From positions 18,788,001-18,852,000 of the forward strand of contig NC_087245.1 of assembly GCF_037042905.1 (NCBI RefSeq): a DNA stretch of 64,000 nt. Direction: 5' to 3'. The stretch comes from Lytechinus pictus (taxonomy: Eukaryota). The notes below the pieces were generated by a model, which was not told the DNA's origin, did no database searches, and was given only the letters and a program-made list of their open reading frames with translations. The translations under genes and the position numbers were made by a program. Each line of letters opens with the position of its first letter. Positions within the stretch are counted from its first letter, which is position 1. This document shows, piece after piece, positions 25,901 to 56,707 of this stretch.

Positions 25901-28900
25901 CCTAGTTTCATGAGAGAAACAAATACACAAAAGGGAAGAAAAAGAAAACAATCATCAAATAACAGGAAAGAAAGAGAGAGGGTGAATCCAACAAACCTGA
26001 TCTGCTTTAAACTGATCTCCACCAAAGGCTGACACACAGGGCTTGATCCCACCAGTTCCCAGACCTATCAGTAATAGGCCTATCATAGGACCAACTCTGA
26101 CAGGTAGTGATAAAATGAGCATGGAAAAATCCATTAAACATTACCATTTGCAAAATCATTGTGGCACTAAAAGGGCTGACAGCATATCTTTTAAAACGGT
26201 TTATTACATGAATCTTATTTCAATTTACATGAATCTTATTTCAATCTCTATGGCAGAGTGATAACAAAGATCTATTGTGTGTGAAATTAAAAATTATTTA
26301 CAATTACTAAACATCATACAAATGTACAGAAATTATGGAATAAATGCCCTTTAACTTGAAGAGAAAATCATATTGATATGGATAGACTGATTGAACATTC
26401 ATGATTTCTACTTGAATAAAAAAATACACTGAAAATAACCACACAATCATACACTTATTACAATTAATGTATCTACAAAGCTCAATAATGTGAGCTGTAA
26501 CATAAAAATATTTATTTTGGATTAAAAAAGAATCCTAAAAAATTTGCAATTTATTTTCAATAGAACATATATCTACACTACACATTACAAGGAACTAAAA
26601 AAATTCAATATGCAGGAAATATGTGAGTTCAAAATGAGAAATTTTTATAAAATCTTACTGGTAGGCATGTATGCAATAGTATTCAAATACTTTGAAGGAC
26701 ATATGTTTGTACTATATACTTTCTCAGGATTCCATTTTAAGTTGTACTGTATCACCGAGGTTACTTACAATTCAGGATTGCCTGTCGTCTGGGGAGGTAG
26801 CGCAGTGAAGCACATGACTGCATTGCCCAGCATGTAGATCTGAGCAATATAGACAATAGTTCTGGAACATAGAGAAATAAGAGTTTGTTATATATATATA
26901 GTTTGATATAATTAGTATATATTTTGGTTACATAATTGCATAAGTATGTTTAAGTAAGCAACTGGAGAATAAATGCATTTGAGATATGAGCGACCGAGTG
27001 ATTGATAGATTCATAATTCAGACATTCTCGAATATGTTTTTTGTTCATGCTATATGCGATACAAAATCTAATATGTTGCTTTGCAAAATTTGTAGGAATT
27101 GTACACAATAAAACGAAATCAAACAAACTATCATTTTTATTCATTTTTTTCACAGTAATTACACAAATCAGAGTGTTCCAAGAAGCAGACATGTTAGAGG
27201 GCAATCAATGTACATACATGCATTAATCATGATAAATCAATGTTTTTCAATGATCTCATACACATGTTTCCTAACGTTATGCCCTCCACTGCAAAGTCAT
27301 CTGTGAACTGTATACACACAACACCATTGTTAATGAGGCCTACATGTACAATTCCTTTTGGGTCAATAACTTCTTCCTAGATAGTACACTGGCAGGTGAA
27401 AAATTTAAAAATCAAAGAAAATATTTAACTGAACAAGGAACCCCCACTGCAGACAAATGTAAGGATTAATCAGTAGGACTATAGCAATGAGATATCAGAA
27501 AAACTGTAATGTTTGACGAAGGCTTGTTATCACATAGAATAGGAGTGAAACACTGTGATTAATTCAGGGTGTTGATTTGTAAAGCAATTTCTCACAATAC
27601 ACCTGTGCATATGATGTCATAATCTCATAGCGCCCTCTCTCAGAGGATATAGGAAAGTGTGTAAACGGAGTAGTCAGAGATGTGCAGATTACTAATGGCA
27701 ATCGCATCAGCCTCTAAGACGATGGCACAATGTCTTCAATGCACCAGGTCTATAAACATGATGGAACAAGATCATAATATGGGTGCAACTTGCAGGGGAG
27801 CAATTTAAATTGTGAATATTGGATGGCATCTATTGGGTACTCACTTGTACTTTCCCAGCCAACCATCAGCTATCATTGCACCAATGATTGGAGAGAAGTA
27901 GCACAGCATGTTGAAGGAATGGAAGATCACTGTCGATGTATTATCACCAAGGAGCAGAATGTTTGTCAGATATAGAACCAAGATGGCTACAAAAAAATCA
28001 AAAAGAAAAATCACTCTTATCAGTGGTTTAAGGATAAACATTACAAGTACAACACTGACCTAAAGTAGAATGTTTGGGAGGCACTGTGATTAAAAGATGA
28101 AGATGAAGAGCAGAATAGATGATTGAGGAAGAAAGCTAAATAGAAGAAAAGAAGAAGATACGTGGAGCTGAAAAACTTGAATGAAAAAGAAGAGAAGGGG
28201 AATCAGAAGACAAATATAAAAAAGAGGGAAAAGAAGATAAGAAGAGGGAAGAAGCAAAAGATAATGAAAGAAAAGAAGATGAAGAAGTAGAATGGAGCAG
28301 AAGAAAAGAAGAACAGGAGAGAAACAGACAGGATAAGAAGAGGATGATCAAAGAAAAAGAAGAAAGATAAGACGTAAGAAAAAAGAAAGGCCAAGTTAAA
28401 AAAAAAAGAAGATACAAATGATGAAGAAGTGAAGAAAGACACCCCCAAATATGGTGATGATCACTTTTTAGTTTTAACATCACTTTTAACATAGAAAGAA
28501 GAGAGGATGTTGTGTATATTAGACTGATAACATTCTTGTATGGAATGACTGATTGTCCGCTATAACATCAGGGGTGATACTGATACTTCATAAAGAACGC
28601 TAAATGAATGGATAATGGAAGAGGATAGTGATAAGAGAAATCAAGAACTTCCAGAAGATAAAAAAATGGGAAAGAATTTACAATAAAAGAAGAAACCAAC
28701 AGTTTCACTTTGAATATTACCTTTCATGCCATAGAAGGAGAACCTCTCGCAGAACTCTGTTCCTACAATGAAGAACACACTCTTTGGAAACCCTGATTGG
28801 CCCGTCACAAATTTCTGTGGACAAATAAGCAAAAACTAATTGAAAACACATTCACTTAGAAATAATTTCCTGTACAAACAATTTCTCAATGATCATAAAG

Positions 28901-31900
28901 TCATATTTTTCTTGGATAGCATGTTATTCGTAATGTTGAATCATCAGTAAAAGTGACTACAAAACTTCAAGCTGGCCAATATCATTTTGACTTGCATGCG
29001 AATCATGTTCATCATATGAAATATGAAATAAAATAATCAGAATTGCTGTTTGAATTTTCTTTGAATTGATTGCAAATCTTTGAAATACAAGGTCCAGGAC
29101 TAAAACATTTAGTTACCTTTACTCGACCCCATCCTTTGCCACTGATAGCTTGTTCCTGAGGGCGATCAATCAAAGAGCTCCCTGAAATGATACAAATTTT
29201 TTTTTAAATAAAAGCGGTTGTCGCTCTGATAATTGCAGGTACTCTGATAATGAATGAATAAATGCATGATTGAAGAATTAACACAAACATATTGCACATA
29301 CAAGTATATGATACATAAATTATCCACAAAAATGAATGAATATATGATCTATAAAAATGAAGTGTGAAAGCCCACAATTGAAAAAGTACACCTGTATGTA
29401 ACTAAAGATTTTTTTTCTTTTAACAATATATGTATTCTATTTGTGTGGTAGTAGTAGTTTTGGCGGTGGTAGTAGTATTAAAATAGCAGAAGTTGTGGTA
29501 GTAGTTACATGGTAGTATAAATAGAGTAGTAGTAATAATAGTAGAAGTAGTGGTAGTAGTAGTAATAGTAACAGTTGTAGAAGAAATAGTATACACAATA
29601 TAACATTTGTACAAAGACAATGGTGAAAGTAAGTTAGAGAGGAAGGGAAATAAGGAGAAGATGAAGAAGAAGGGGAAGAAGAAGGGAAGAAGAAGAAGAA
29701 GGGGAAGAAGAAGGGGAAGAAGAAGATGAGGAGGAAGAAGAAGAAGAAGCAGAAGAAGAAGAAGATAAAGAAGATCAATGAGGAGAGAAGAAATAGGAGT
29801 AGGAGGAAGAATAAGGAAAAAAGAAGGAACAAAAAGAATTTGACATCATTGTTTCACGACTACCACTGGCATTCATGGCAGCAATCCCTCTCAAGGATGA
29901 ATATAATGTTTTACCAAAAGACATTGGTTGGTATTCTCCAAGCATTGACCAATTGTAAAGTCAACCCTGTACAATACATATATCATAATAATATTGAAAT
30001 ACTTTACATGAACAATCACCACAAATTAATTATAACTGTCTGCAATCACTTTAATACCCCTAAAATTCATAATGCATGTGGATGATGATAAAATGTCTGT
30101 ATACTGCTATAACACCCCCCCCCCCCCCATCCTAGTATATGTGGAAAATATTCATCATTAAATTTCAAACACAATAAATGTAGAAGAAATAGTATACATA
30201 ATATAACATTTGTACAAAGACAATGGTGAAATGAAGTTAGAGAGGAAGGGAAATAAGGAGAAGATGAAGAAGAAGGGGAAGAAGAAGAAGGGGAGGAAGG
30301 GGAAGAAGAATAACAAGAACAAGAAGAACAACAACAAGAACAAGAAGAAGAACAAGAACAATAAGAACAAGAAGAAGAAGAGGAAGAAGATAAAGAAGAT
30401 CAAAGAGGAGAGAAGAAATAGGAGAAGGAGGAAGAATAAGGACAAAAAAGAAGGAACAAAAAGAATTTGACATCATTGTGTCACGACTACCACTGGCATT
30501 CATGGCAGCAATCCCTCTCAAGGATGAATATAATGTTTTACCAAAAGACATTGGTTGGTATTCTCAGAGCCTTGATCAATTATCAAGTCAACCCTGTACA
30601 ATACATGTATATCCACTTATATGGATTGCCAGTTTAGTTGTTTACCCATTTATCAAGTACATATCAGTTTCATATAGCAGTGAAAAGTTTTCCCAAAAAT
30701 AATTTTCATCACTAAAATGGGAAGAAATATGGAAATGGGTATGCCAAGATACAATTAATTTTCATGAACTCTGTTATTTCATCTCTTTAAAATCAATTTT
30801 GGATGGAGATGAAGCTTAGAATTCCATGGTAGTATGGACTAGAATCTTTGCTCAGTCTGCAGTTCAGTTAAAACTAGGTTTAATTATGGAATATCATCCA
30901 CTTTAATCACCGATGCGAAACTCAATCCAGTTGATCAACAGCCCCTGAAATTTTGACTTGACTGTCATAACTCCTGGAGATACAGGATGCAATATCTGAG
31001 AGATGTCTTAACATCATTTGTGATTTCATGTCATAAAGAGAAGTGGAACAGGACACCATTTCAGTATGTAGGGTGTATTATCTAAAGCAGCAAAATTTTC
31101 AAAAGGGATATTTGATTGAGCAATAGGGGAAAAATATGAGGGTATGAGGAGAAAGAGTGGGTAATATGATTCCATAGAATAGAGAGGGGGAAATGTGTAA
31201 GAATACCCAGTTTAGGGTATGAAAACAATATTTTTTTATCCTAGTAATTTTCTGATGATGAGATGCACCAATGATGTATTGAGCACATTGTGACATATGC
31301 TAGATCTATCAAATTCATAAAACAAAATTCAGGTACATGTATTTAGCATTTATTTTAAGAAGTTCAAATTGATCATGAATAATCAAGGATAGGGTTTATG
31401 GGAGGGAAGCTTCCTGGGGGCCGTTTCATAAAGCTGCTCATAAGTTAAGAGCGACTTTAAGAACGACTGGTGATCCTTTCTTGTGGTAAATAATATGTTC
31501 ATTAGTGATTACTTAGCATCTAAGAAATGTTCACCAGTCGTTCTTAAAGTCGCTCTTAACTTACAAACAGCTTTATAAAACACCCACCAGGGCTGGGAAG
31601 GGATGTTGGGGGCGGTTGGGGTGGGAGGGTGTATGATTCTTTTTCATACTCATTCAGTTTCCTTTGATTCGATTGCTTTGCTGTAAATTCATTTTATGTT
31701 ATATTCTGTATTTTTAGACTAGGTATTTACCTAGTTCTTGATAATTTTAATGTTATATTCTGTAACTTTTGTAACTTATGGTATGCTTTTGCTCAATAGC
31801 AATTATGTTATGTTACTTTTGGGGGGGTAATATTCTATCAGAATATGTATATGTGTATATGTTTTTTAACTGAATTATCAACTCAATAAAGACTATTAAA

Positions 31901-34900
31901 AATGTGAAATAAATACATATCACTGTCAATCCAACATGTTCTGTGTTTCAAATAGCATCTAGTATTTCACCTAACACTTAACTCGGGGGAACAGGCAGTG
32001 AAATCGAAAAAAATGTTATTCCCTTGTCCTCAAATGTGCAAAATTGAGAAGTATCAAAAACATTTTCCATTATCTGCCTAAAACCAAAAATGTTGACAAA
32101 GAAAAAAATGCTGGTGGCAGTAGTAATTTTCAAGCATACAAAGATGGATCTCTCTGTAGGAATTTAAATTGACATGTACTGGCTAGTACGGTAAGCTCAA
32201 ATATCACAGCAAGTGGTTTACTCAAGCATGAATTTTGTTACTGTGCATGTACATGTATATTGATAGCACTCATAGACATTCACTATAATATGAGTTAACA
32301 ATATCACAAATATATATTCACTATTTTCTCAAACTCATTACAGAAATTTAAGAGATGTTTTTTCAAGACTTTGATGTTGTTTTTACATGTACAAGTATAC
32401 ATGAGTGGACAATTTGATGTTGGACATGGCAAATTACAATATACAGTACTAAATATGCATATTGTTATTTCAATTTTTTAGACAGCAATGACACAATGCA
32501 TTCAATCTTAAAAGAATTTGAAAACATTTAGCTCTACAAGAAAACAATGTACTAAAAGTCAATCAGCAAACAACATTAATAACAATAATTGTAAATCAAT
32601 ATGATATGGTGTTTGTGATGTTTATTACAACCTGTATGTTAAAGACTATTCAGGCTCAGCATTCAGTATTTTTCATGAATCGGAGCTAATTAAGATTAAA
32701 AAAACATGTATAATATCCAGTACAGTGGTGCTCAAAAGTCAGTGAACCCCACTAAAAGAAAAAAATATTTTTGAGTCATCAAGTTCTGTCATGTTTTACA
32801 TATTAAATTGTGATTTCTCTGGGCTTACAGAACGTTGTAATGTTGTTGTTTATGTTCAACACTCAGCATAAAAGAGGGCAATATGTGAAGGGCTTCACTT
32901 ACTTTTGAACACATCTGAATTTACTAATAATGTAGTTTTAAAGGCAAAGGGTATAACTTTTGATTTCAGGTCAAAATTTCAAATTTATTTTTAATAAACA
33001 TATCAACATGTCAAATTTTTAAATTACTCATTTCTAAAGCTTAAACTACATGTAAAAGGGGAACCTATAAAAAATTGTTGATTTATGGAAATCATTCTTT
33101 TGATTTTTACTGCTAAAATTATCATTTTTTCCCAGAAATACATAATTGATTTGTCCTTCATGATTCAATAATCTAATGTACTTTGAGGTGTAAAAGGTAG
33201 TGGTTTTTGTCAAATATTCAAGGTCATTCATTAACTTCAATGTGTTTTTAAAATTCATGACAAAATTTGATTTTTACAGTATGTTAGGGATCTCTTCTAA
33301 AGAGGGAGAGGGAGGTAATCTTTACTACTTCGTGAGGGCCAATTACCCCCAGAAATCAGATTTCAAATAAGAAAGTTTCAAATTTCTTATTTTGTTTTGG
33401 AAAGTTTCAGTTTACAATAGTGTGTGTTTCAGAGACTTCAGTCATGTTAACATTAAAGTCAATAATTTTTTGAAGAAATCTATCTTTAAGATGGCATATT
33501 TAAAGGGGTTTGAGGTTAAAGATATCAATAAAAAAAAATTTAATGCAACAAAAAAATAAAAAAATAAGAATACAATTCTACTAGTTCATGAAACAACGAA
33601 CGATATAAGTCTAAAGACATACGGTGTATTTTATATGTATCTTTGTATATTAAATTGTACACATATGATTACACAGTTCTCCATTACAAATTACATTAAC
33701 ATAACAATTAAAAATGAACAAATGTTAGTCAAACCACAACCATGCAAAGAGAAGCAAACTAAAGCCTCATGATCGTAATAATGATACAAAACCAAATTCA
33801 CCAGAAAACATAAATCTTGGGCATGCCCCCCCCCCCCTCCCCTTCAGTAAACACAATTGTCATTACTCATTAGCCCTAAGTACAGAAAGAACTGAAGCAT
33901 GCATCAAAACATCTTTTACATTTACTGAAGCAATGGTGTATAAATGTTGCAGGACAAAGTAGGAAAGAAGCATGCATGATATAAAATGATAAAGAGATTG
34001 GAATAATGAAGGAAAATGAAAGGGTGACAAATACTAATAAAAGCTTGCACCACTGTATCTGAATAAATGAATTTAAGAAATTGGTAACGCATAAGTAGAT
34101 AACGAAGTAAACAAATATTATTACTTCAATATTATCTCAAGCAGTAAAATGATAAAAATAATAATGACTAGGATTCCCACACCTAAAGTACAAGTAATGC
34201 CATACACATGTCTAAAACCTTAAAAAGCTGCTCTATGCAACTTAAGAAAACTATTTCAAGAGCAAAGGATATAACAACTTGGGACAACGAAAGAAAAGCA
34301 TGTCTGAAACCATAAAAAAATGAATTAGTCAAATGAAGACAATTATTTACAGAGCAAGTTAGGCAACATAACACCATGAACATGCAACTACGGACAAAAT
34401 TTACAGCAAGCAGTACCTGCGGTAGGTCTTTTATAAGCTGCGCTTGAATATGGTGACTCGGTGTGCGTAGTACCATCTTCCAGCGTTTGAGGATCCATCA
34501 TAAAAGGAACTAACTCGTCTTCAGCAATAAAATCAGTCATCTGCTAGGAAGCGACAGAAAGACCATGTTCAGTTACCTCCAAGTTTCCCATTATCATGAA
34601 AATGTAACAGCAATTTAGTGTATTTATTACTTATTTATTCAGACCTTTCAAGAATACATTATAATGAAAAAAATATGTATATGTAATACAAATCATTCAA
34701 GTGCAAGATCGACCTGAATTTAAGATTGTTTATGTAAATACCCAGGCAAAATATTTCAAGCAAGAATTTTTTTTAAAGACTTTTGTTACAAAGATGGAAA
34801 GATATGCACAATGGTTAGGCCTCATATCGAGCCAATTCAAAATTTAACTTAAAATTCCACTATAGACCAACAATCTATGTTAAATTAATCATTCTCTAGT

Positions 34901-37900
34901 GCATAGATGTTTCTAAAAGGATTCATTATGAAAATTAATAGAAAAGGATGAAAGCAATAATATGTTGGGAGGATTTGGGGATTGAAGCAAAAACAAAATT
35001 ATATTTATTGCAGCAGCTTCTGAATGGTGTTATTGAAGTAGATCTGTAATGATATAGAGACAGAAATATAACAGATGTCTAGAGTTAGTAATGACAAGAG
35101 TTTAAGTGAATGGAGGTAAAATGTTAGTGCAAAAGGAAAAAGGGTATATCATTGGAATACCAATTCACATATATCTACAAGTAAGTTTTTAACTTGAACA
35201 TAATATATTCCTAACAGAAGTAATAAAACTGATTATTTTTACAATACTAATTTATAAAAATAATTATGGAGGTTCGATACAAATATTTGGATCAGAACTC
35301 AACTATTCCATGACAATTAATAGAAATAACAATTACAACTGAATTAATACCAGTTCATATTATATTCATACTCTATCATATAGTGCACAGTCTTCGATAT
35401 GGGCAAAATTTACTTTCTGAAAATTTAGCATTTTTGTTTAGTTAATACCAATCATGATTTTCTTAAGCCTTTATGATAAGAATTACCAGAAAAAATGACC
35501 AATATTCCATCATATAGGATGCTATTGAAGCAATAATGAAATACATCAATGATAAAATACTAGTGATTTTCTTTAAGATAATGACTGCTCGATCCTCCCT
35601 CCCATAACAACTAATCCCTACAAATGCTTGAGAAACAAAACTTCCCACATAATACATTGTATGGAAAAAGATGTTTTAGGTCTGTACCTCAAGACTACCT
35701 AACAATGAACCTGAATTAAACCATTCTGGATTTGTAATTGATTAGAAAATGCTGACACTCAGGCGATTAATTTCTTCTTTTCTATTTTTAATTTTCAAGT
35801 TTATCTTTTCTATTAGATATTCAATTATCAGATTGAATTATACTGAAATCACTGACATGTAATAGTGAATTACAGACACCCATATGGCAATCAAGTGATT
35901 TTAAATGAAAAAATAATATGGGTACCTTATTCTCATGCATGGTTTTCTGAGACTACCTCGACTTAATTTGGAAAATAATTGATACAGATCCCAAAGTCTT
36001 TAAAGGACAAGTCCACCCCAACAAAAAGTTGATTTGAATAAAAAAGAGAAAAATGCAACAAGCATTACACCAAAAAAATTCATCAAAATCAGATGCAAAA
36101 TAAAAAAGTTATGACATTCTAAAGTTTCCCTTAATTTCACAAAACAGACTAAGCACATCCTGGTTGCTTTGCAAATTGAGGGGACTGATGACGTCATCCA
36201 ATCACTATTTCTTTTGTATTTCATTGCATGAAATATTTTCACTTTCCCCACATTGTCATGTAAAACAAAGTTATATTCCACCCTGAACATGTAGAATTAC
36301 CACTGTTTTAACATTTTGCAGAACTTTTAGACAGGTTATTATTGTCAAATCTGTAATAACTGAAATATTGTATAATTCAAACAATAAAAAAAAGAAATAG
36401 TGGATAAGGGACATCATTGACCCACTCATTTGCATATCATTGAGATGTGCATTTAACTACTTTGTTGAAAATAACTTTACTATATTACATTCGATTTGGA
36501 TAAAATTTTCAGCATTATACTTCCTTGATTTTTCTCTATTGATTCAGATCAACAATTTTGGGGGATGAAGTTGACCTTTGAATCTAACAACCAATGAAAA
36601 AAAATTAATAAAGCAACTATTTTTTATTTGAAATAAACGTGTTTGAAAACAGCATTTTTATGATAAAAAGGTGTTGATGATTGAACACATCCTGAATCCT
36701 GTACCTTCTCACTATAAATCCCCTACTTCTATCATGGATCTAGTGTAGCTCCACGCTTCTGTCATGAATATTCCTCTGAGCTACTCAGATGTCCCTTGAG
36801 ATTTGACCGGGATTGTTTTCCCTTCTCCGCAATATACCTGTCACACTTAAGATATTAATCCTGACTCGTTGCCTCCAGACGAATAATGTATTCCCTGAAA
36901 ACTGCAGATAAACTCGCTTTCTAACGTCGCTTCAGCGATCTGATGTTACGCTATATCAACTCCTTCAGTGCCAATAGGGTTTGGTATTTGAAATGAAAAA
37001 AAAAATGAACAAGCATTTTGTTGACTTTCAAGCTTGAGCAAAATATATATTTTTCATTCTGTATTGCTCTTTAATAGAAATTAAAACAGAAACCTTCAAT
37101 TTCTCTTGCTCAGTCCAGGCTCAGCCAATAAGTAATAATTTCCTCCTAAAGACTTGTCAGATTTTGACATATCATTTGCCCTAAGCAATAACAAAGCAAG
37201 TGCTTTATGTAGCCTACTCTCCATTCAAGTACACAAATTGATCAAAATATATGGCAATCAATCATTTTGTCTACTAAACGTTTGGAGCTATCTGAGATAA
37301 AGATAAAATAAAGCATGGTACAGTACAGGTACATGCGGACAGTGAAATCTCCAACATGTTCCTTCATGGAACACAATATTTCTGCTTTGAATAAAAAAGT
37401 ATGTCCAGCGACTACAAACAAAAACCATAATTAATCACATGACCATTTACTATTGAATGGTACTTTAATAGATAGGCCTACCTCTCTTGATTTCATTGGC
37501 TACCGTACTATTAAATCTCAAAGCCAAAGCCATGTTAATTATGTTATGTAAAATTCAACACCATTCTGCACGTGCCGTCATAACACATCTCATATAATAA
37601 AAATTGGAAAATATCAATTCCAGGTTCAATAGCAACTGCCAGAAAACTCATCCATAAATAATTGTCAATTCAGTTTGTCCATGAATCTAGCCTACAAGAG
37701 GTGCCTACTGCATGTAGATCTACATGTACTACTGTATGTGTTAAAAGATCGATTCAACTTTTTTTTTCAGGAGCTCATCTACAGTGTGCTCCAAATTATT
37801 TTCTCATCTGAATGATAATCTATACTTTTAACAGCTCTATGTTTGATCTCTAGGGTTTTTTTTTCATAAAGAATTGGACTGGGAACTTCCAGAGAAACAA

Positions 37901-40900
37901 TATTAATTAAGCAATCATATAATTTTGAGTCTAACATAATTTATAGATCAAAGACTGCCAATTTAATGAAAATGAATCTACACGTGCATCTATGTCTTCA
38001 AAGTCATGATCCCACAAGAGTTAGGCCTAGAATAAAATAGGCCTATACATTTTCAAATAAAATAATTTCAGAATTGTGTAATTAACACTTATAAATTTGC
38101 ATGTTTAATTTATTTGTGTGTTTCATAATACACTGTACATGCACGCAAGTTGTGATATCACTCATACGTAATCCTGAGAAATTGGTCAAGCCCGGTGTAC
38201 TTAAAGGGGTACTGCGGGCTGAAAATATTTATATCCAAATAAAAATTCAAAGAGCAAAATGCTGAAAAATTTCATCAAACTCTGATAACAAATAGTGAAG
38301 TCATTGAATTTTAAAGTTTAGCAATATATTGTGAAAACAGTTTATGCACGTGACAGCACGTCATCATGAATATTCATTAATTAGGTGGGCTGATGATGTC
38401 ATATCCCCACTTCCCTTTGGCTTATGTTATTACATGAAATCATAATTTTTTCATTTATTCATACATGTGTAAATGATATATCTCCATTATTAAACAATGA
38501 AATAGGTTGCAACAATGAAATGCACTAAATCAGTCATCAATCCAATTTTTTTAGTTCTTAGAGTACAAAATTTGAATAAACCTAATTTCATATAATAAAT
38601 TACAAAAGAACAAGTGGGAGATATGTCATCATCAGTTTGCTCGTTGAATATGCCTATCTCATCTGTTTCACCGAAATAATGCAATTTTTTTATAAAATGC
38701 CATAACTTTGTAATTTTTCGTCCAATTTTGATCAAATTTTCAGTGTTTTGATTGTCTGATTTTTCTTTATCTGTTCAAATCATATGATTTTCAGCTTGGA
38801 GTACCATTTAACACCATGCATAAATCAGTAATTTCTCTTTAAAAGTGATTACAACCTCATTCAAACAATTCACTTTCCCTAAGATCTCACTAAGTTTCAA
38901 GTACTGCTTAATCCTTATTCTTCCGTGCTTCAGATTCATCATTCATTTAATGGGGCATTGCAAGAAACTTGAGATCAATTGCCAGTCTATATACGGTCAA
39001 TCTCATTTGTTTCACCGAAAAAATACAAATCATTAAAACGCCATAACTTTGTCCAATTTGGATCAGATTTTCAGTGTTTGATTGGCTGATTTTTCCTTAT
39101 CTTTTCAAATCATATGATTTTCAGCCAGGAGTACCCTTTTAACACCATGCATAAATCAGCATTTCTCTTTAAAATTGATTACAAACCTCATTCAAACAAT
39201 TCAGTTTGCATGAAAATAAAATCTCAAAAAGTTCCAAGAACTACTTAATCCTTATTCTTCCCCGTGCTTGAGATTCAGCATTCATTTAATGGGGCATTGC
39301 AAGAAACTTGCGATCAATTGCAAGTCTATTTATGTTCCTTAAATCAGAAAGTCAAAAAGGGGCCTAAGCTTTCGATCCTAGCAGAATCTTCGTCGGAGGC
39401 AAAATGACAAACATATAAAGTGGAACAACCATAATATAGACCACAAACAAGCTACAGCAACACTAGAAACAAGGAGACAAAAGGGGCATTAGTGAGTAGA
39501 GAAGACCAATCAGGTTCCTTAAATCAATCATAAGTCTTCCAATTAATTTCAAATTCGTTACTGATTGCTGTTCAAACTGCTTCTTGCAACAAGGAGTGTA
39601 CAGCTAAAATTTATCTATTAAAACGACAAGTCCACCCCAACAAAAAGCTGATTTGAATAGAAAGAGAAAAATCAAACAAGCATAACACTGAAAATTTCAT
39701 CAAAATGGATGTGAAATAAGAAAGTTATAACATTTTAAAGTTTTGCCTAATTTCTCAAAACAGTTATATGCACATCCTGTTTGGTATGCAAATGAGGGGA
39801 CCAATGACATCACCCACTCACTATTTCTTTTGTATTTTATTATATGAAATATTTTGATTTTCTCGTCATTGTCATGTGAAACATAGTTTCATTCCTCCCT
39901 GAACATGTGGAATTCCATTACCATATTTAAACATTTCGTGGTTCAGGCAAGGGGGTCCCAATTGTTAAATTCGTAAAAATTGAAATTTTGTTTAATTCAA
40001 ACAATAAAAAAACAAAAGAAATAGTGAGTGAGTGACATCATCAACTCTCTCATTTGCATATCACTGAGTTGAGCAGAACTGTTTTGTGAAAAATAAGCAA
40101 ACTTTAAAATGTTATAACTTTATTATTTTACATCCGATTTTGATGAAGTTTATTCGTGTTTGATTTTTCTCTATTCATTTAAATCAACTTCTTTCTGGGG
40201 TGGACTTGACCTTTGTTTAATTGCAACAGAAAATTTGCAATTGATTGCAAATATTTTCTTGCAACATTGTGGGCGTTATTGCATTTGTGGATGTAACACA
40301 GTCTTTCTCAAAATTCTTACTTGTGGCCCTTTCCATATTGTACATGTAGGTCTTAGGGAAAATTTGGTTGACCAGCAAGCCTCACTAACGATAATTTAAT
40401 GCACATATGAAGAGTGGTGCATGAAATATGAAACCATGAATTGAAATGATATTTTGCATCATTACATATACTGCAACTCATGTGTAAACATATAGCCCAC
40501 CCCATAAAATAGGGATGAAGATAATTGGGAGAAAATATTCTTTCAGGTGTTTCATGAAGCTGTTTCGTAAGTTAAGAGTGACTTTAAGAACGACTGGTTA
40601 TCCTTTCTTGTCGTAAATGGCATTGGGCTTGACACAGGTAAAAAATTTGACAAGCAAAAAAAAAATAAAAAAGTTATCTACCTAATTTTTAGGGGAGGAA
40701 CACCAAAATTTTTTGACAAGCAAAAAATAAAATAAGTTTAGGGGGGACAGGTCCCCCCATCCCCCCCGCTTCCGCCGCCTATGGTAAATGGTATGAATTG
40801 CTGATGGTTTACCATGTAAGGATTCACCAGTCGCTTTCAAAGTCTCTCTTAACTTACAAACAGCTTTATGAAATGGCCCCCAAGACATACATAGGCCCTA

Positions 40901-41346
40901 ATTCATGTGACAAGGGTTTTCTTTGAATTAAGATTTCTTTTATCAACTCACTCAGTATAATTCAATGTCAGGTATTAAATGTCATACTTGATCTTTCTGA
41001 AGGCCATTCCAAAGTTCTTTTATCATCAATTTTGTTAAAGTTATTGTGGCATCAGTGTCATTGCAATAATTTAATTAATAATTATCATCATTAAAATATC
41101 CATTACATTACAATATCATTACCATAAATAATTATTATATTATCCTAATAATTATCATTATAACTAGTAATTATGGTAATTGATATTAATGTAATCATTA
41201 TTTCTTCTATTATAATTATTAGTAGGCCCAAGTAGTGAATTATTATTTCTATTGTGATCATAATTATTAAATGTCATTAGTATTATCATACTATTGTTAT
41301 TATTATCATTATTATTATTATTATTGTTATTAATTATCATTATTAT

Positions 41347-41377
<31 letters not shown>

Positions 41378-41484
41378 TTATCAAATTATTAAGTTATTAT
41401 TGTCCAAGTTTGTCTGAAACATGAAAACATCTTACCTCCTGCAGCACCAGAAGTGTATACGAATTCTGGAGTGATTTCTTGCAT
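13794..41484 (-). CDS. SLC15A1/2: Proton-coupled oligopeptide transporter, PepT1/PepT2 type (POT/PTR family); about 748 aa with the 41.4-kb first exon or 773 aa with the 34.5-kb first exon
   Basis: 19 shared exons (2198 nt) join in frame. Motifs: [10 protein letters not shown] (ExxER), conserved His in [81 protein letters not shown]. Large extracellular domain typical of SLC15A1/2. The first exon is less certain. Confidence 0.93.
14662..14769 (-). CDS. SLC15A1/2: SLC15 exon ([21 protein letters not shown]...ESQ)
   Basis: 108 nt, conserved TM11. Confidence 0.95.
15340..15505 (+). mobile_element. Fossil Penelope-like element, GIY-YIG endonuclease C-terminal fragment
   Basis: [45 protein letters not shown] with one stop and one frameshift; fits the PLE pattern H-x-I-x-W...KRKxKE..I..LNRDxG. 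Confidence 0.7.
15666..15797 (-). CDS. SLC15A1/2: SLC15 exon (IHLAIH...QIPQY...GLEFSYSQ)
   Basis: 132 nt, conserved TM10. Confidence 0.95.
16020..16232 (+). mobile_element. 5'-truncated SINE related to the 3.5-kb copy
   Basis: Shared core GACCCAGGTGAGGTAAATGGGTACCTG..GGATT..ATTCCTTGAAT; tail GCGCTATATAAG. Confidence 0.7.
16294..16569 (-). mobile_element. Non-autonomous Helitron-like element
   Basis: Minus strand starts TCTTATTATATA and ends with a GC-rich segment plus CTAG|T; the 5' flank is G rather than the canonical A. Confidence 0.45.
16620..16743 (-). CDS. SLC15A1/2: SLC15 exon, extracellular domain (YNVYG...GGIY...HPDI)
   Basis: 124 nt, phase 2/0. Confidence 0.9.
17018..17155 (-). 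CDS. SLC15A1/2: SLC15 exon, extracellular domain (FGYFMST...IEPG)
   Basis: 138 nt, phase 2/2. Confidence 0.87.
17762..17808 (-). CDS. SLC15A1/2: SLC15 exon, extracellular domain ([15 protein letters not shown])
   Basis: 47 nt, phase 0/2, needed to reconcile the neighbouring phases. Confidence 0.85.
18433..18594 (-). CDS. SLC15A1/2: SLC15 exon, extracellular domain (GTKEIDF...LQAIQ)
   Basis: 162 nt, tag acceptor, gtgagt donor. Confidence 0.88.
19055..19171 (-). CDS. SLC15A1/2: SLC15 exon, extracellular domain (STEIKLP...DIGE)
   Basis: 117 nt, AG/GT, in frame. Confidence 0.88.
19410..19848. mobile_element. MITE (GGCCCGTATTCTGAAGTC TIR family) with internal duplication/inversion
   Basis: TIRs shared with 53107-53407. 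Confidence 0.7.
19976..20146 (-). CDS. SLC15A1/2: SLC15 exon (ALNPVFIL...VQLKID)
   Basis: 171 nt, phase 0/0. Confidence 0.95.
20479..20511 (-). CDS. SLC15A1/2: SLC15 33-nt micro-exon ([11 protein letters not shown])
   Basis: cag acceptor, gtaag donor; conserved PDQMQ. Confidence 0.93.
21624..21758 (-). CDS. SLC15A1/2: SLC15 exon (ASLIED...[19 protein letters not shown])
   Basis: 135 nt, phase 0/0. Confidence 0.95.
22899..22982 (-). CDS. SLC15A1/2: SLC15 exon (FAVKNRF...[11 protein letters not shown])
   Basis: 84 nt, HWLDWAxEKY motif of PepT1/2. Confidence 0.95.
23346..23428 (-). CDS. SLC15A1/2: SLC15 exon (IFVCGRYFY...KAMG)
   Basis: 83 nt, phase 1/0. Confidence 0.93.
24057..24225 (-). CDS. 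SLC15A1/2: SLC15 exon ([18 protein letters not shown]...MAVAI)
   Basis: 169 nt, FYxxINxG motif. Confidence 0.95.
25997..26096 (-). CDS. SLC15A1/2: SLC15 exon (VGPMIG...[21 protein letters not shown])
   Basis: 100 nt, phase 2/0, POT signature. Confidence 0.95.
26769..26861 (-). CDS. SLC15A1/2: SLC15 exon ([12 protein letters not shown]...NPE)
   Basis: 93 nt, phase 2/2. Confidence 0.93.
27845..27986 (-). CDS. SLC15A1/2: SLC15 exon (AILVLYL...ADGWLGKY)
   Basis: 142 nt, phase 1/2. Confidence 0.95.
28090..28440. repeat. Purine-rich (GAA-like) low-complexity tract
   Basis: Direct inspection. Confidence 0.8.
28721..28814 (-). CDS. SLC15A1/2: SLC15 exon (KFVTG...[12 protein letters not shown])
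   Basis: 94 nt, ExxER motif, AG/GT bounded. Confidence 0.95.
29117..29181 (-). CDS. SLC15A1/2: SLC15 exon ([21 protein letters not shown])
   Basis: tttcag acceptor, AAG|gtaact donor, 65 nt, phase 1/0. Confidence 0.8.
29576..30606. repeat. Local duplication (29576-29978 / 30178-30606) containing GAA-rich simple repeats
   Basis: Unique flanks are nearly identical; microsatellite cores have diverged. Confidence 0.85.
31413..31591. mobile_element. Fold-back MITE
   Basis: About 60-bp inverted arms containing TAAGTTAAGAGCGACTTTAAGAACGACTGGTGA; second copy at 40546-40881. Confidence 0.8.
34417..34540 (-). CDS. SLC15A1/2: Candidate alternative ATG exon B of SLC15 ([41 protein letters not shown])
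   Basis: Polypyrimidine tract plus tagcag acceptor directly before ATG; 124 nt open; CAG|gtactg donor, phase 1; GC content above flanks. Confidence 0.6.
36004..36577. mobile_element. Kolobok/T2-like MITE family 1
   Basis: Same left TIR after TTAA, decayed right TIR, homologous body. Confidence 0.82.
38205..38807. mobile_element. Kolobok/T2-like MITE, family-2 related
   Basis: TTAA flanks, AGGGGTACT..GCTGAAAAT TIR, body similar to 47140-47708. Confidence 0.78.
39347..39513 (-). mobile_element. Penelope-like/retrozyme-like short insertion with minimal hammerhead motif
   Basis: 13-bp TSD GTTCCTTAAATCA (39334-39346, 39514-39526); near-identical copy at 55592. Confidence 0.75.
39362..39400 (-). 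ncRNA. Minimal type I hammerhead ribozyme-like motif (U4C variant)
   Basis: GCCU-CCGACGA-A-GAUUCU-GCU-AGGAUC-GAAA-GC-UU-AGGC. Confidence 0.6.
39622..40212. mobile_element. Kolobok/T2-like MITE family 1
   Basis: GACAAGTCCACCCC ... GGGGTGGACTTGACCT, homologous body. Confidence 0.82.
40546..40881. mobile_element. Fold-back MITE interrupted by a hAT-like MITE (40621-40783)
   Basis: Insert flanked by 8-bp TSD GTAAATGG; arms match the 31.4-kb copy. Confidence 0.8.
41280..41400. repeat. (ATT)n degenerate microsatellite
   Basis: Direct inspection. Confidence 0.8.
41436..41484 (-). CDS. SLC15A1/2: Candidate first coding exon A of SLC15 ([16 protein letters not shown])
   Basis: ATG at 41484, strong GAG|gtaaga donor, phase 1 matches the acceptor at 29181; CpG/GC-box-rich sequence just upstream. 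Confidence 0.6.
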
Positions 41485-41574
41485 GCTCACAGTTGGGACA
41501 CAAAAAGGGCTTACAGTCACAGATTTCTAACTTGATTGATGTCTGTATTATTTGTAGTCGGATTGAAATATGTT

Positions 41575-41670
41575 CGAAACGCAGTCCAGCTCCTCTAGTC
41601 CGGGGATCCGCCCCGCCGGCAACGGCTCTCGCGTTCGTCTGATCACGAGCAGCTGCTAGCTGCTCGAGGA
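41575..41670 (-). promoter_or_regulatory. CpG-rich candidate promoter/5' region of SLC15 with GC box
   Basis: Local CpG cluster with CCGCCCCGCC (Sp1-type box) about 120 nt upstream of exon A ATG, in otherwise AT-rich DNA. Confidence 0.4.
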
Positions 41671-43862
41671 AAATTGGTCCCCAATCTCGTTATAAGACTG
41701 AATTTCCAGGTATCATTTCATACTTGTTTATGTCGATATCTGTGATAATCAATTGTTGGTCTTCATGGAGCCTGACAATAATGGAATAACAATTACGAGA
41801 AGAAACTGTATCAGCAATCATTGTCCTCGGCAAACATATGTTGCAGACGGGAAGCTCAGGAAACAAAAATCAACAGTCCGGATTTTCGCAGCACCCCCTC
41901 TCGTGACAATTGTTATCACAGTGTAACAGTGCGAGTGGAGATCATGACATAGAGATAAAACTACATGCCAGTATTTCGTTCATGAATCCGTGTTTATATT
42001 AAAAATATGATGTTTGGAAACAAAAATCGGATTTGACGAATTTTTCATTTCACACACATTTTTTCCGTATGATTATTGAGTATCATTACCGTACTCATTA
42101 TCCCACCATTTAAAACTTAAGCTCTAATATTGTTTATATTTATTATTATATATTGCCATTGTTGTGTGTGTTTGGTTGTTGTTTTGTGGAGTTATTCATT
42201 TATTAATTTACTTTTTATTCAAAAATGATTTTATATCATAATAATGCATAATTAGTTCACGCTCTGAAGACCCTTTTAACCTCTGGCCAGTAAAAACAAA
42301 ACATGCAATGAAACAAGTACGTCATCATTTCCGTGTGAGTTTTATGAATTCTTTATATCCCGTATAAGATGTTACTGAATGCAAGTCGATTAACACTTTC
42401 AAAAGTAATGTCGAAGCAGTTTCTATATTCAAAATAGGTTTTTTTAGTCATTTTATTTCTTGTAAAGTATAATAATATATTATGACAGTGGATACTGGTG
42501 TCATTGTTGTTATTCTTTCTATTATGAACCATTGATATTTGGAAAGAGCGCTATGTAAAAAGGTTTGATTACCTTTTTTATGAAGTAGGCCCTACCCCAT
42601 TTCATTTTCAAATTAAATTTTGTTTACGTTTTATTCCATATATTTTATTATATGATATTTTTTACTGGAGAATTAAAGAAATACAAATGCAAACTATCCT
42701 CCTTCGCTCCTTGTTTTTCAAAGTATGATTTTGCTTCGGTGTTGAAAAGGGGAATTCCTACTTTAATTGAAAAGATAATTGAGTTTCAAAGTAGAGCTCA
42801 AGTGCTGACCTTGGCGTTCGTGTCCTACCTTATAAAGATGACTCGCCATTTCTTCCTTCAGCGATATATATTACTCGTGTCTTAATTGTTCTGAAAGCCC
42901 AAATACCGTATGTGTATATAACGATTCGAAAGAGTGCGATGAATTAAGGATTATGGATTAGGTTATAAGTTTGTGTTTGGATTGACGCGTAGATTTCCAT
43001 CAATCATTATTGTCATAAGAGAATAAGATGAAATGAATGTCTGCATTCAAATTGGATTCGTTATCATAGTCACGATCCAATTTAAAGGGCAAGTCCACCC
43101 CAACAAAAAGTTGATTTGAATAAAAAGAGAAAAATCCAACAAGCAAAACACTGAAAATTTCATCCAAATTGGATGTAAAATAAGAAAGTTATGACATTTT
43201 AAAGTTTCGCTTAATTTCACAAAACAGTTATATGCACATCCTGATCGGTATGCAAATGAGGAGACTATGACGTCATCCACTCACTATTTCTTTTGTATTT
43301 TATTATGCCAAATGTGAAATATTCTAATTTTCTCCTCATTGGCAAGTGATACAACGATTAATTCCTCCCTGAACAAGCAGCGGCGTAACAGGGGTCGGTG
43401 GCCAGGGGCCCGGGGGTGGGGGGGGGGGCAAGAGCAAAAAATTTCCCGGTCATATCATGGCATGAACAGGCGTAATGGTGTAATGAGGCGACGATTTTGA
43501 GAGGGCCAGATATTGCGCATCGTGCAGAATTTATCTTTAAAAAAAAAGTTGCGAGCGAGCAAAAATTTTGACATTTTTAATACAAAAATCCAATTTTGTG
43601 ATAGATTTTGACATGATATCCATAGAATGATATATTTCATTCTTCTCTCTTTCCATTCCTTTTTTTCTGGTCTGTACTCCACTGTGAACAAGATTCTTTG
43701 CGGCAGTAGCGTGAAGAGTATAAAAAACGAGGGGCACAGTATGGCGCATGTGCTAAACAGCTGCTTAATATAAGTCCCGAGCGAGCGAAGCGAGCGAGAA
43801 AAAAAACTTTTCATGAGAATCTAACTTAATTTGAGATACTTTTTGACATTATATTCAGTTAA

Positions 43863-55591: not shown

Positions 55592-55825
55592 AGAAAGTCA
55601 AAAAGGGGCCTAAGCTTTCGATCCTAGCAAAATCTTTGTCGGAGGCAAAATGGCAAACATATAAAGTGGAACAACCATAATATAGACCACAAAAAAGCTA
55701 CAGCAACGCTAGAAACAAGGAGACAAAAGGGGCATTAGTGAGTAGAGAAGACCAATCAGCTTAGTGAAGGGGGTGAAAGAAAAGGAGTAGGCAGACACAA
55801 AGAGAAGTTAGTGTAAGTAAGGCCA
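55592..55825 (-). mobile_element. Second, apparently longer copy of the hammerhead-bearing element (motif 55608-55646, more decayed)
   Basis: About 165 nt nearly identical to 39347-39513; right boundary approximate. Confidence 0.7.
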
Positions 55826-55833
55826 GTAAAAGA

Positions 55834-56707
55834 CCTCAAAAAAGTTTGGAAATCTGAGTTTGGCCATTAATTTCTCCCAACTCCCAATTTTACACAATGC
55901 ATATTTGACATCATTTAAAAGATCATTTAATTCTCTTTGAAATGATACCATGATTGTTATGATCATGCCATCACGAAAATAGCAGGATTCAAAAGTGTTG
56001 GATGATGTCTGAATTTAAAAGCTGCAAACGAGCAAAAAAAAGTTTGGAAATCTGAGTTTGGCCATTAATTTTTCCCAACTCCCAATTTTACACATTGCAT
56101 ATTTGATATCATTCAAAAGATCATTTAATTCTCTTTAAAATGATAACATGCTTGTTATGATCATGCCATCACGAAAAGAAAAGGATTCAAAAGTGATGGA
56201 TGAGGTCTGAATTGAAAAGCTGCAAAACGAGCAGAAATAGTTATGGAGGGTCAATACAGAACATGATTCTTTTGTCTGAATAGAGAAGAAAATCCATTCA
56301 AATCAAGCCCCTGCTTCTTCATTTTTTATGTTTTGTTGTGGTTTATGTAGTGATGGTTTGTTTGTTTGTTTGTTATGTGTTTGCTTGTGCAGAGGTGTGT
56401 TTGATTCCATGTTAATGTTGATGTTAAGGTGCATGAAAACAATAAAAGAAACCGCTGAGAAACTCACTCATCACCACGGAAAAAAGAACAGTGACTCTTA
56501 ATATTGTGTCTTTTTGCAACTTTTGAATTTTGACCTTGCCCCACATTTGAAGGCACTGCACCTCCATGTGAACCATAATCATATCATGTAGGGTATCATT
56601 TTCAAGAAAATTAAATGATCTATTCATTGATATTAATATCACATTGATATTTAGTAAAACCGAGGAGGGATTATTGACCAAAGTAAGATTTCCAAACTTT
56701 TTGGAGG
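55834..56707. mobile_element. TIR element with an internal about 197-bp tandem duplication of its left end
   Basis: CCTCAAAAAAGTTTGGAAATCT / AGATTTCCAAACTTTTTGGAGG; unit repeated at about 55838 and 56035. Confidence 0.65.

What the first reader, a model, noticed from the sequence alone, without database searches (positions are those of the whole stretch)
39334..39526. 167-bp retro-insertion carrying a minimal hammerhead ribozyme fold on the sense strand of the SLC15 5' intron
Seen: a 13-bp TSD (GTTCCTTAAATCA) brackets an insert whose minus strand reads GCCU CCGACGA A GAUUCU-GCU-AGGAUC GAAA GC UU AGGC. That gives a 4-bp stem I, a CUGANGA-like box with U4C, a 6-bp stem II, GAAA, and a vestigial palindromic helix III (AAGCUU). 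Known: minimal type I hammerheads with palindromic helix III occur in Penelope-like element termini and retrozymes and are thought to cleave as dimers. Inference: this is a mobile 3'-end fragment or non-autonomous PLE/retrozyme family. It would be transcribed in SLC15 pre-mRNA if exon A is used. U4C may weaken or abolish cleavage.
Basis: partly seen in the sequence, partly recalled or inferred. Interest (0 to 1): 0.75.

Follow-up and report, generated by a model that had tools for sequence, protein, structure and literature searches.

The report
Penelope retroelement tail with variant hammerhead
The insert is the truncated tail of a young, very abundant Penelope-like jumping gene whose small hammerhead-ribozyme motif carries the same catalytic-core change in nearly every copy; the element is of a known kind, and nothing shows that it affects the host gene it sits in.

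Summary
In detail: 13-bp TSD (39334-46, 39514-26), 167-bp insert, minimal type I hammerhead on the minus strand. The insert is not a retrozyme or stand-alone element. It is the 5'-truncated 3' end of a young Neptune-type Penelope-like element (PLE); 13 of 52 listed copies have a stop-free RT + GIY-YIG ORF. U4C is the family norm, not decay: 1,384 C4 against 20 U4 copies, and all 6 complete 5' ribozymes ahead of near-full ORFs are C4. U4 copies are about as rare as lethal CpG mutants (10-35). Fourteen other motif families here show covarying stems with U4, and one has its own C4 subfamily. About a third of the family's copies are 60/120-bp stubs. Their commonest start is 8 nt before the ribozyme, usually with an extra G. 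This suggests that capped, uncleaved RNA is the template. RNA reads place the insert, sense, in the SLC15 5'-UTR intron; the junction itself was not displayed. Cleavage is untested, and a lone monomer should be inactive. Verdict: known kind of element, with a family-wide core variant I did not find reported for PLEs.

The parts
39334..39346 (.). Target-site duplication, copy at the element's 3' end
   Evidence: 13-mer found only at 39334 and 39514; matches of 10-16 bp flank 8 of 20 family loci with both ends in view, 7 bp or more 15 of 20, the short ones possibly chance
39347..39513 (-). 5'-truncated 3' end (3' UTR / pseudo-LTR) of a young Neptune-type PLE
   Evidence: 40 of 40 scored genome matches 100% identical, 1,223 candidates; upstream continuation into RT + GIY-YIG ORF
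39362..39400 (-). Minimal type I hammerhead motif with C at core position 4 (39395); stem I 4 bp, stem II 6 bp, AGCU palindrome; predicted cut after 39366
   Evidence: homologous U4 motifs with covarying stems in 14 other families
39347..39361 (-). Common 3' end of the family, about 19-20 nt past the predicted cut (first reverse-transcription start site, inferred); the 62-nt tail is absent from this copy
   Evidence: 21 of 30 loci end here, 8 end at the tail, 1 runs on into the element body
39401..39408 (-). GTCATTTT: commonest 5' boundary of the family's stubs; inferred transcription start at G39408 in source elements (not shown for this copy)
39514..39526 (.). Target-site duplication at the truncated 5' end; shares AAC with the element's upstream sequence (microhomology)
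41436..41812 (-). SLC15 exon A (5' UTR, inferred), upstream of the intron holding the insert
   Evidence: 373-nt contig of run X5 with one difference ends at the GT donor; raw RNA depth 7.8/0 and 11/0 by direction, same direction as the coding exons
34417..34540 (-). SLC15 exon 2 with the likely start codon at 34501, in frame with exons 29117-29181 and 28721-28814
55593..55830 (-). Second, more diverged copy of the same family (about 235 bp), with C4 plus G8A and a C-to-U change in stem II

Best explanation
The insert is a dead-on-arrival, 5'-truncated copy of a recently active Neptune-type Penelope-like retrotransposon. Shown: family, ORF, tandem and inverted copies, two fixed 3' ends, TSDs, and C4 in nearly all copies. 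Inferred mechanism: a source element is transcribed from a start about 8 nt before the hammerhead in its 5' pseudo-LTR and reads through to the same motif at its 3' end. Its RT/GIY-YIG protein nicks AT-rich DNA and starts reverse transcription about 20 nt (or about 82 nt, giving the tail) 3' of the ribozyme's cut site, on RNA that has not been cut. Priming at the 5' motif runs off at the cap and gives 60/120-bp stubs, often with an extra G. Priming at the 3' motif gives copies of any length, such as this one, which reaches 105 nt upstream of the start site and ends at a 3-nt microhomology. The C4 core most likely gives a slow or protein-dependent ribozyme that the family tolerates because insertion needs uncut RNA. 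In the SLC15 pre-mRNA the motif is a lone monomer without helix III and most likely does nothing.
For: Family and ORF. Tandem unit with the motif at both ends 4,198 bp apart (L031) and inverted pairs (L032, L038). C4 1,384 vs U4 20; G5A 10, G8A 35, G12A 21 under similar but not identical patterns, so U4 is at the level of CpG decay. Of 7 U4 stubs in inverted pairs, the partner arm is C4 in 6 and truncated in 1. Of 10 near-full ORF copies, 6 have a complete 5' motif, all C4; 3 of these have an upstream pseudo-LTR and no stop. Stubs: 564 of 1,451 copies lack the reference base 19 nt upstream; 86 of the first 100 listed start within 11 nt of stem I (hand count). 141 copies end exactly at GTCATTTT with a non-reference next base; among the 100 listed it is G in 72, A in 20, C in 8 (hand count), where 25% G is expected. 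One stop-free full-length copy (L109) starts at the same place. PMC11167929 (text parts 1-2): in vitro, RT starts internally at two sites that define the tail, uncut RNA is the main substrate, ribozyme mutants do not impair insertion, and the ribozyme needs the protein. PMC4209133 (parts 1-2): a monomeric minimal hammerhead showed no cleavage.
Against: No cleavage, cap or start site was measured. The extra G is cleanly outside the TSD in only 4 of 13 fetched G-stubs; 2 have G plus another base, 4 share the G with the TSD, 3 were undetermined. RNA reads showed no pile-up of ends at 39408 or 39366 (about 6% of each raw run read, tables truncated, weak test). U4 copies are stubs in 13 of 20 against about 36% expected (p about 0.008), which plain CpG decay does not explain. 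The lowest-energy dimer pairs the stem II arms between molecules rather than forming the double hammerhead. The empty site was not seen. Neptune versus Nematis was not settled by a tree.
Confidence: 0.85

Rival explanations
1. Same element, but the C4 ribozyme is fully functional in vivo as a dimer or with the element's protein and does a needed job (trimming read-through RNA, circularisation or cap-independent translation); U4C is neutral.
For: All other core positions, both stems and the palindrome are intact in the amplified form. A viroid U4C variant keeps infectivity despite lower in vitro activity (PMC3088659, passage). A 2026 virome screen uses CYGANGA as its core and finds C/T degeneracy there (PMC13481778, passages). 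Self-cleavage can drive cap-independent translation (PMC13725137, abstract only). U4C amplified in a second family (28 of 51 rows; linked flank differences in 3 vs 2 fetched copies).
Against: Copies end about 20 nt or more past the cut site and carry the motif whole, so the template was uncut or re-ligated. Stub 5' ends lie before the ribozyme, not at the cut; my patterns required the intact core, so copies starting at the cut would have been missed.
Confidence: 0.3
2. The ribozyme is dead in this family and the sequence survives only as a DNA promoter or protein-binding RNA element, or by the short time since the expansion.
For: Family is very young (40 of 40 scored copies identical), so conservation within it says little. 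TCATTT and GGATC match the Inr and DPE consensus at +28 spacing if A39405 is +1 (consensus recalled); D. virilis Penelope has an internal Inr/DPE promoter (PMC2377424, passages).
Against: The stub mode points to G39408, 3 nt off that spacing; by eye the 20 fetched motifs of other families do not keep these boxes. No lethal core mutant (G5A, G8A, G12A) has expanded beyond 10-35 copies, whereas U4C, the one change known to be tolerated, expanded in two families.
Confidence: 0.2
3. The 167-bp unit is a non-autonomous retrozyme or SINE-like family of its own.
For: It has a TSD, no ORF and a type I hammerhead; animal retrozymes are proposed to derive from PLE pseudo-LTRs (bioRxiv 10.64898/2026.07.22.740005, parts 1-2).
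Against: No fixed 167-bp boundary: only 2 of 30 loci stop within 12 bp of it. None of the 30 loci holds a second exact copy within 1.5 kb; the pairs seen are 2.8-4.7 kb apart around ORF sequence.
Confidence: 0.03
4. The host has co-opted the motif to regulate SLC15 by cutting its pre-mRNA.
For: Sense orientation within the likely 5'-UTR intron.
Against: Identical to at least 39 other copies, so recent and unselected; both orientations equally common genome-wide (701 vs 683); no second sense motif between 28.6 and 42.2 kb to act as partner; the other window copy lies upstream of exon A and has G8A.
Confidence: 0.02

Closest known systems
Minimal hammerheads (min-HHR) in pseudo-LTRs of metazoan PLEs (Cervera and de la Pena 2014, PMC4209133)
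   Same: Type I; short stem I, 6-bp stem II starting G10.1-C11.1, extra base after A9, palindromic AGCU in place of helix III, U-rich 5' flank; present at both ends of full elements and alone in 5'-truncated copies; opposite-strand pairs; sea-urchin examples listed there.
   Different: C at position 4 throughout the family. Every row of their Fig. S3 alignment that I read has U4, but their consensus core is CUGANGA, so C4 families may have been missed. This family is highly uniform, unlike most they describe.
Neptune-clade EN+ PLEs (features as in Craig et al. 2021, PMC8557442, passages)
   Same: One ORF, RT then C-terminal GIY-YIG; DKG motif; Cx4CxxC linker; CCHH residues around GIY-YIG; partial tandems, inverted truncated copies, optional tail.
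   Different: Tail about 62 nt rather than 30-40; clear 7-16 bp TSDs at AT-rich sites; about 620 nt between ribozyme and start codon. Nematis shares the linker and was not excluded.
PAc, Poseidon element of Anolis (Frangieh et al. 2024, PMC11167929)
   Same: Two 3' ends just downstream of the hammerhead bracket the tail; AT-rich targets; uncut RNA as template.
   Different: Different clade; in PAc the ORF starts inside the ribozyme. The stub class with an extra 5' G is not described in the parts I read, nor matched in its supplements.
Natural U4C hammerheads (viroid variant cited in PMC3088659; CYGANGA motifs in PMC13481778)
   Same: Same single core change.
   Different: Those ribozymes have a real helix III and are not in retrotransposons; here the change sits on an already minimal, dimer-dependent motif.
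Non-LTR retrozymes of animals
   Same: Non-coding sequence with a type I hammerhead related to PLE pseudo-LTRs.
   Different: Defined by head-to-tail arrays of a fixed unit; not seen here.

Membership tests
EN+ Penelope-like element | Single ORF with RT and C-terminal GIY-YIG endonuclease | tested here: met
   909-aa open frame in L034 and L039; RVT_1 E 1e-8; GIY-YIG E 1.4e-4, exactly at cut-off
EN+ Penelope-like element | Partial tandems forming pseudo-LTRs; inverted truncated copies | tested here: met
   L031 tandem, L032 and L038 inverted; 4 of 10 near-full ORFs have an upstream pseudo-LTR
EN+ Penelope-like element | Optional 3' tail | tested here: met
   8 of 30 loci end about 62 nt beyond the common end
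EN+ Penelope-like element | Retained spliceosomal intron in some members | not tested
   RNA was laid on the window, not on the full element
Neptune clade | CX2-5CxxC linker between RT and EN, CCHH motif, DKG motif | tested here: met
   read by eye from the translation
Neptune clade | Groups with Neptune, not Nematis, in an RT tree | not tested
   no reference sequences were fetched
PLE minimal hammerhead | Stems I and II with covariation | tested here: met
   41 of 45 and 42 of 45 Watson-Crick pairs over 15 families; none of 10,000 shuffles reached either; no covariation within this young family
PLE minimal hammerhead | Palindrome in place of helix III | tested here: met
   AGCU here; 97 of 100 listed generic hits have AGCU, AAUU or ACGU where the pattern left two bases free (hand count)
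PLE minimal hammerhead | Core CUGANGA | tested here: not met
   CCGACGA in 1,384 vs 20 copies; other core positions match
PLE minimal hammerhead | Self-cleavage as dimer or with protein | not testable with these tools
   no assay; no read pile-up at the cut in a weak test
Rfam hammerhead families | Covariance-model match | tested here: not met
   no hammerhead family among 15 matches at E<=10
Non-LTR retrozyme | Head-to-tail tandem array of a fixed non-coding unit, each with a hammerhead | tested here: not met
   single copies of variable length; linked to an ORF

The most novel reading that the evidence does not exclude
U4C is a selected attenuation. The family's RNA begins about 43 nt before the ribozyme's cut, so cleavage would remove the cap from the only mRNA and destroy the primer-proximal template. 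A slower core would then raise copy number, which fits this C4 family outnumbering the 864 hits of my generic U4 pattern and U4C amplifying separately in a second family. The stubs would be a genomic record of the cap and of both RT start sites, a strong-stop-like product that maps PLE transcription starts from DNA alone, and C4-type motifs may hide in PLE families scored as lacking hammerheads.
Probability: 0.2. Interest if true: 0.62.

Novelty: new variant of a known kind. Interest (0 to 1): 0.36.

Why it matters
The role of the PLE hammerhead is an open question (stated in PMC8557442 and PMC4209133). This family gives a natural test pair: a successful element with a core change known to lower activity, beside U4 families in the same genome and a second family with both states. 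The stub junctions add genomic support for the in vitro result that PLEs prime internally on uncut RNA, and suggest where transcription starts. For the host gene it probably matters little.

Tried and rejected
Rfam scan: no hammerhead match. Energy against shuffles: not significant. Dimer folding did not give the double hammerhead as lowest-energy form; the AGCU duplex is -2.5 kcal/mol. PDB sequence search with the ORF: 0 matches at E<=1. Run search on window 27700-29400: no RNA holder listed on record, shares 0.15 or less; not used as evidence. Reads laid on 28600-42200: repeats swamped the tables (1,288 joints and 1,159 differences not shown), so the exon A junction, the empty site and the RNA letter at position 4 could not be read; C-to-U editing is therefore untested. 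Empty-site look-alikes among the window and fetched loci: left flank has a paralogue at 38923-38993, right flank none. A separate U4 subfamily: considered because 7 of the first 10 U4 copies share a shorter T run, rejected as unproven since C4 stubs carry it too and partner arms are C4. A GGTC subfamily as source of the extra G: rejected, none of the G rows continues with upstream element sequence. Splicing as source of the stub boundary: no AG before it. Inr/DPE overlap: noted, not supported across families. Literature: 'hammerhead'+'U4C' gave 1 paper; core-string search gave no PLE paper among 15 of 17 listed; Penelope + cap/non-templated G/strong-stop gave 2 unrelated papers; Penelope + promoter terms 10 of 11 listed; Penelope + sea urchin + Neptune 1. 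Lunse et al. (PLE hammerhead variants cleaving as dimers; seen only as a reference) is not held and may already report C4 variants. Supplements of the bioRxiv preprint were not seen.

Full report
Observation. The 13-mer occurs only at 39334 and 39514, bracketing 167 bp (39347-39513). The minus strand holds the motif as described: stem I 39400-39397/39365-39362, core CCGACGA plus A, stem II of 6 bp, GAAA, GCUU, predicted cut after 39366. Alone it is weak evidence: z-scores 0.00 and -0.65 against shuffles and no Rfam hammerhead match.

The insert is the end of a larger element. All 40 scored genome matches were 100% identical, out of 1,223 candidates; the 30 fetched loci are therefore biased to young copies at least this long. 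Of these 30, 28 extend 235 bp or more from the 3' end and 10 run off the 1.5-kb flank. Upstream lie about 800 bp of 3' UTR and an ORF. L034 and L039 hold a 909-aa open frame with RVT_1, GIY-YIG at cut-off, and DKG, Cx4CxxC and CCHH motifs read by eye. These are Neptune/Nematis features in PMC8557442 (passages). Thirteen of 52 listed protein matches span nearly the whole ORF without a stop. L031 has the motif at both ends, 4,198 bp apart; L032 and L038 are inverted pairs. Of the 30 loci, 21 end about 20 nt past the predicted cut, 8 end after a further tail of about 62 nt, and 1 continues into the element. Duplications of 10-16 bp flank 8 of the 20 loci with both ends in view. Earlier scan notes call this a sea-urchin genome; I did not test that.

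The motif is a real member of the minimal-hammerhead class by structure. A generic U4 pattern has 864 hits against 21 in the reversed control; 97 of the 100 listed are palindromic where two bases were free (hand count). I fetched 20 such motifs. Taking one per family plus this one (15 families; 6 fetched loci left out as repeats of a family), stem I pairs in 41 of 45 positions against 17.6 on shuffling, and stem II in 42 of 45 against 16.9. Only the stem I count is free of my choice of families.

U4C is the family state. C4 has 1,384 matches and U4 20. Lethal CpG transitions are as frequent as U4: G5A 10, G8A 35, G12A 21 (patterns differ slightly). I fetched all 20 U4 copies: 13 are stubs and 7 are longer; in 7 inverted pairs the partner arm is C4 in 6 and truncated in 1. 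The excess of stubs among U4 copies (p about 0.008) is unexplained. Of 10 near-full ORF copies checked upstream, 6 have a complete 5' motif, all C4; 1 starts inside the motif and 3 are truncated in the 5' UTR. A second, unrelated family has its own C4 group: 28 of 51 rows, against 7 U4 rows among the first 100, with linked flank differences in the 5 fetched copies. Every row I read of Fig. S3 in PMC4209133 has U4. U4C is known from a viroid, where it lowers in vitro activity but allows infection (PMC3088659, passage and section 8), and CYGANGA is used as a search core (PMC13481778, passages). I found no PLE case, but Lunse et al. was not readable.

Stubs point to the template. Of 1,451 copies of the core, 564 lack the reference base 19 nt upstream. 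By hand, 86 of the first 100 listed start within 11 nt of stem I and 14 are longer or variant copies; this gives roughly 33-39% stubs. The commonest boundary (30 of 86) is the G of GTCATTTT. Genome-wide 141 copies end there with a non-reference next base; among 100 listed it is G in 72, A in 20, C in 8, with 25% G expected. In 13 fetched G-stubs the G lies cleanly outside the TSD in 4, comes with one more base in 2, is shared with the TSD in 4 and is undetermined in 3. Stubs are about 60 or 120 bp, matching the two 3' ends. One stop-free full-length copy starts at the same place (L109). An untemplated G as a copy of the cap is recalled from LINE literature, not from a call. I infer a capped start 43 nt before the cut and reverse transcription of uncut RNA from two internal sites. 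This matches the in vitro work on PAc (PMC11167929, parts 1-2). An earlier scan note (e1-7811629) described such a stub in this genome as a by-product.

Host context. Three minus-strand frames hit PTR2. Laid RNA shows one-directional depth at 28.6-29.5, 34.0-35.0 and 41.3-42.2 kb, and contigs matching 41436-41812, 34416-34540 and 28721-28814. Splice dinucleotides and the reading frame fit exon A (non-coding), exon 2 with ATG at 34501, then 29117-29181 and 28721-28814. The insert is thus sense in the 5'-UTR intron, but the junction row was not displayed and depth over the insert comes from repeats in both directions. No partner motif lies in that stretch, and a monomeric minimal hammerhead did not cleave in PMC4209133. 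A host role is unlikely.

Verdict. Real and correctly read, but it is a truncated copy of a known kind of retroelement. What lifts it above routine is at family level: a core variant fixed in about 1,400 copies and in likely source elements, repeated in a second family, and a stub class that seems to mark the capped RNA start. Ribozyme activity is untested. Papers seen: PMC4209133 text parts 1-2 of 4 and supplement parts 1-2 of 3; PMC11167929 parts 1-2 of 4 and a supplement search; PMC8557442, PMC2377424, PMC6765202, PMC13481778 passages; PMC3088659 passages and section 8; bioRxiv 10.64898/2026.07.22.740005 parts 1-2 of 5; PMC13725137 abstract.

Noticed in passing
window 55593-55830 (-): Second copy of the same PLE family with G8A and a stem II change, inserted next to a 198-bp two-copy tandem repeat (55838-56237).
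   Followed up: partly
L062-L066 (G000:C1:1944095 and others): An unrelated minimal-hammerhead family (stem II GGUAGA...CUACC, AAUU palindrome) has a C4 subfamily of about 28 copies beside U4 copies: a natural matched pair for testing U4C.
   Followed up: partly
G000 genome-wide (one search list, e.g. C1:14365297/14365347, C2:27700324/27700375, C2:28356983/28357034): Other hammerhead families also form head-to-head pairs 18-90 bp apart, so the stub class is probably general in this genome.
   Followed up: no
window 39374-39407 (-): TCATTT and GGATC match recalled Inr and DPE consensus at exact +28 spacing if A39405 is +1; the DPE-like box is the 3' strand of stem II. Not kept by eye in other families.
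   Followed up: partly
L031:6375-6700 (-): The element's 5' UTR holds a duplicated 155-bp T-rich block with several AG acceptor-like sites just before the ATG; possible retained intron(s), untested.
   Followed up: no
L019 and L020 (G000:C3:10.646-10.652 Mb): Both arms of an inverted pair share about 50 bp of apparent flank beyond the tail end.
   Followed up: no
rows, e.g. G000:C3:16919140, C3:16923977, C2:49461932: Some stubs fold back at the 5' boundary into a sense copy of the core, suggesting template switching at the RNA's 5' end.
   Followed up: no
window 38700-39340: The target lies at the end of a roughly 330-bp two-copy direct repeat (87-96% in blocks).
   Followed up: partly
window 36000-36550, 38100-38800, 39600-40270, 43050-43200: Pieces of a very abundant repeat with long inverted arms (e.g. 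39782-39838/40007-40063); the Rfam microRNA matches there are far below gathering scores.
   Followed up: no
window 29450-30660: A roughly 600-bp local duplication around AAG/AGT microsatellites in the SLC15 intron.
   Followed up: no
L031:8215-9900 and L042:5956-7903: Neighbouring long ORFs that look like endonuclease/RT of another non-LTR element.
   Followed up: no
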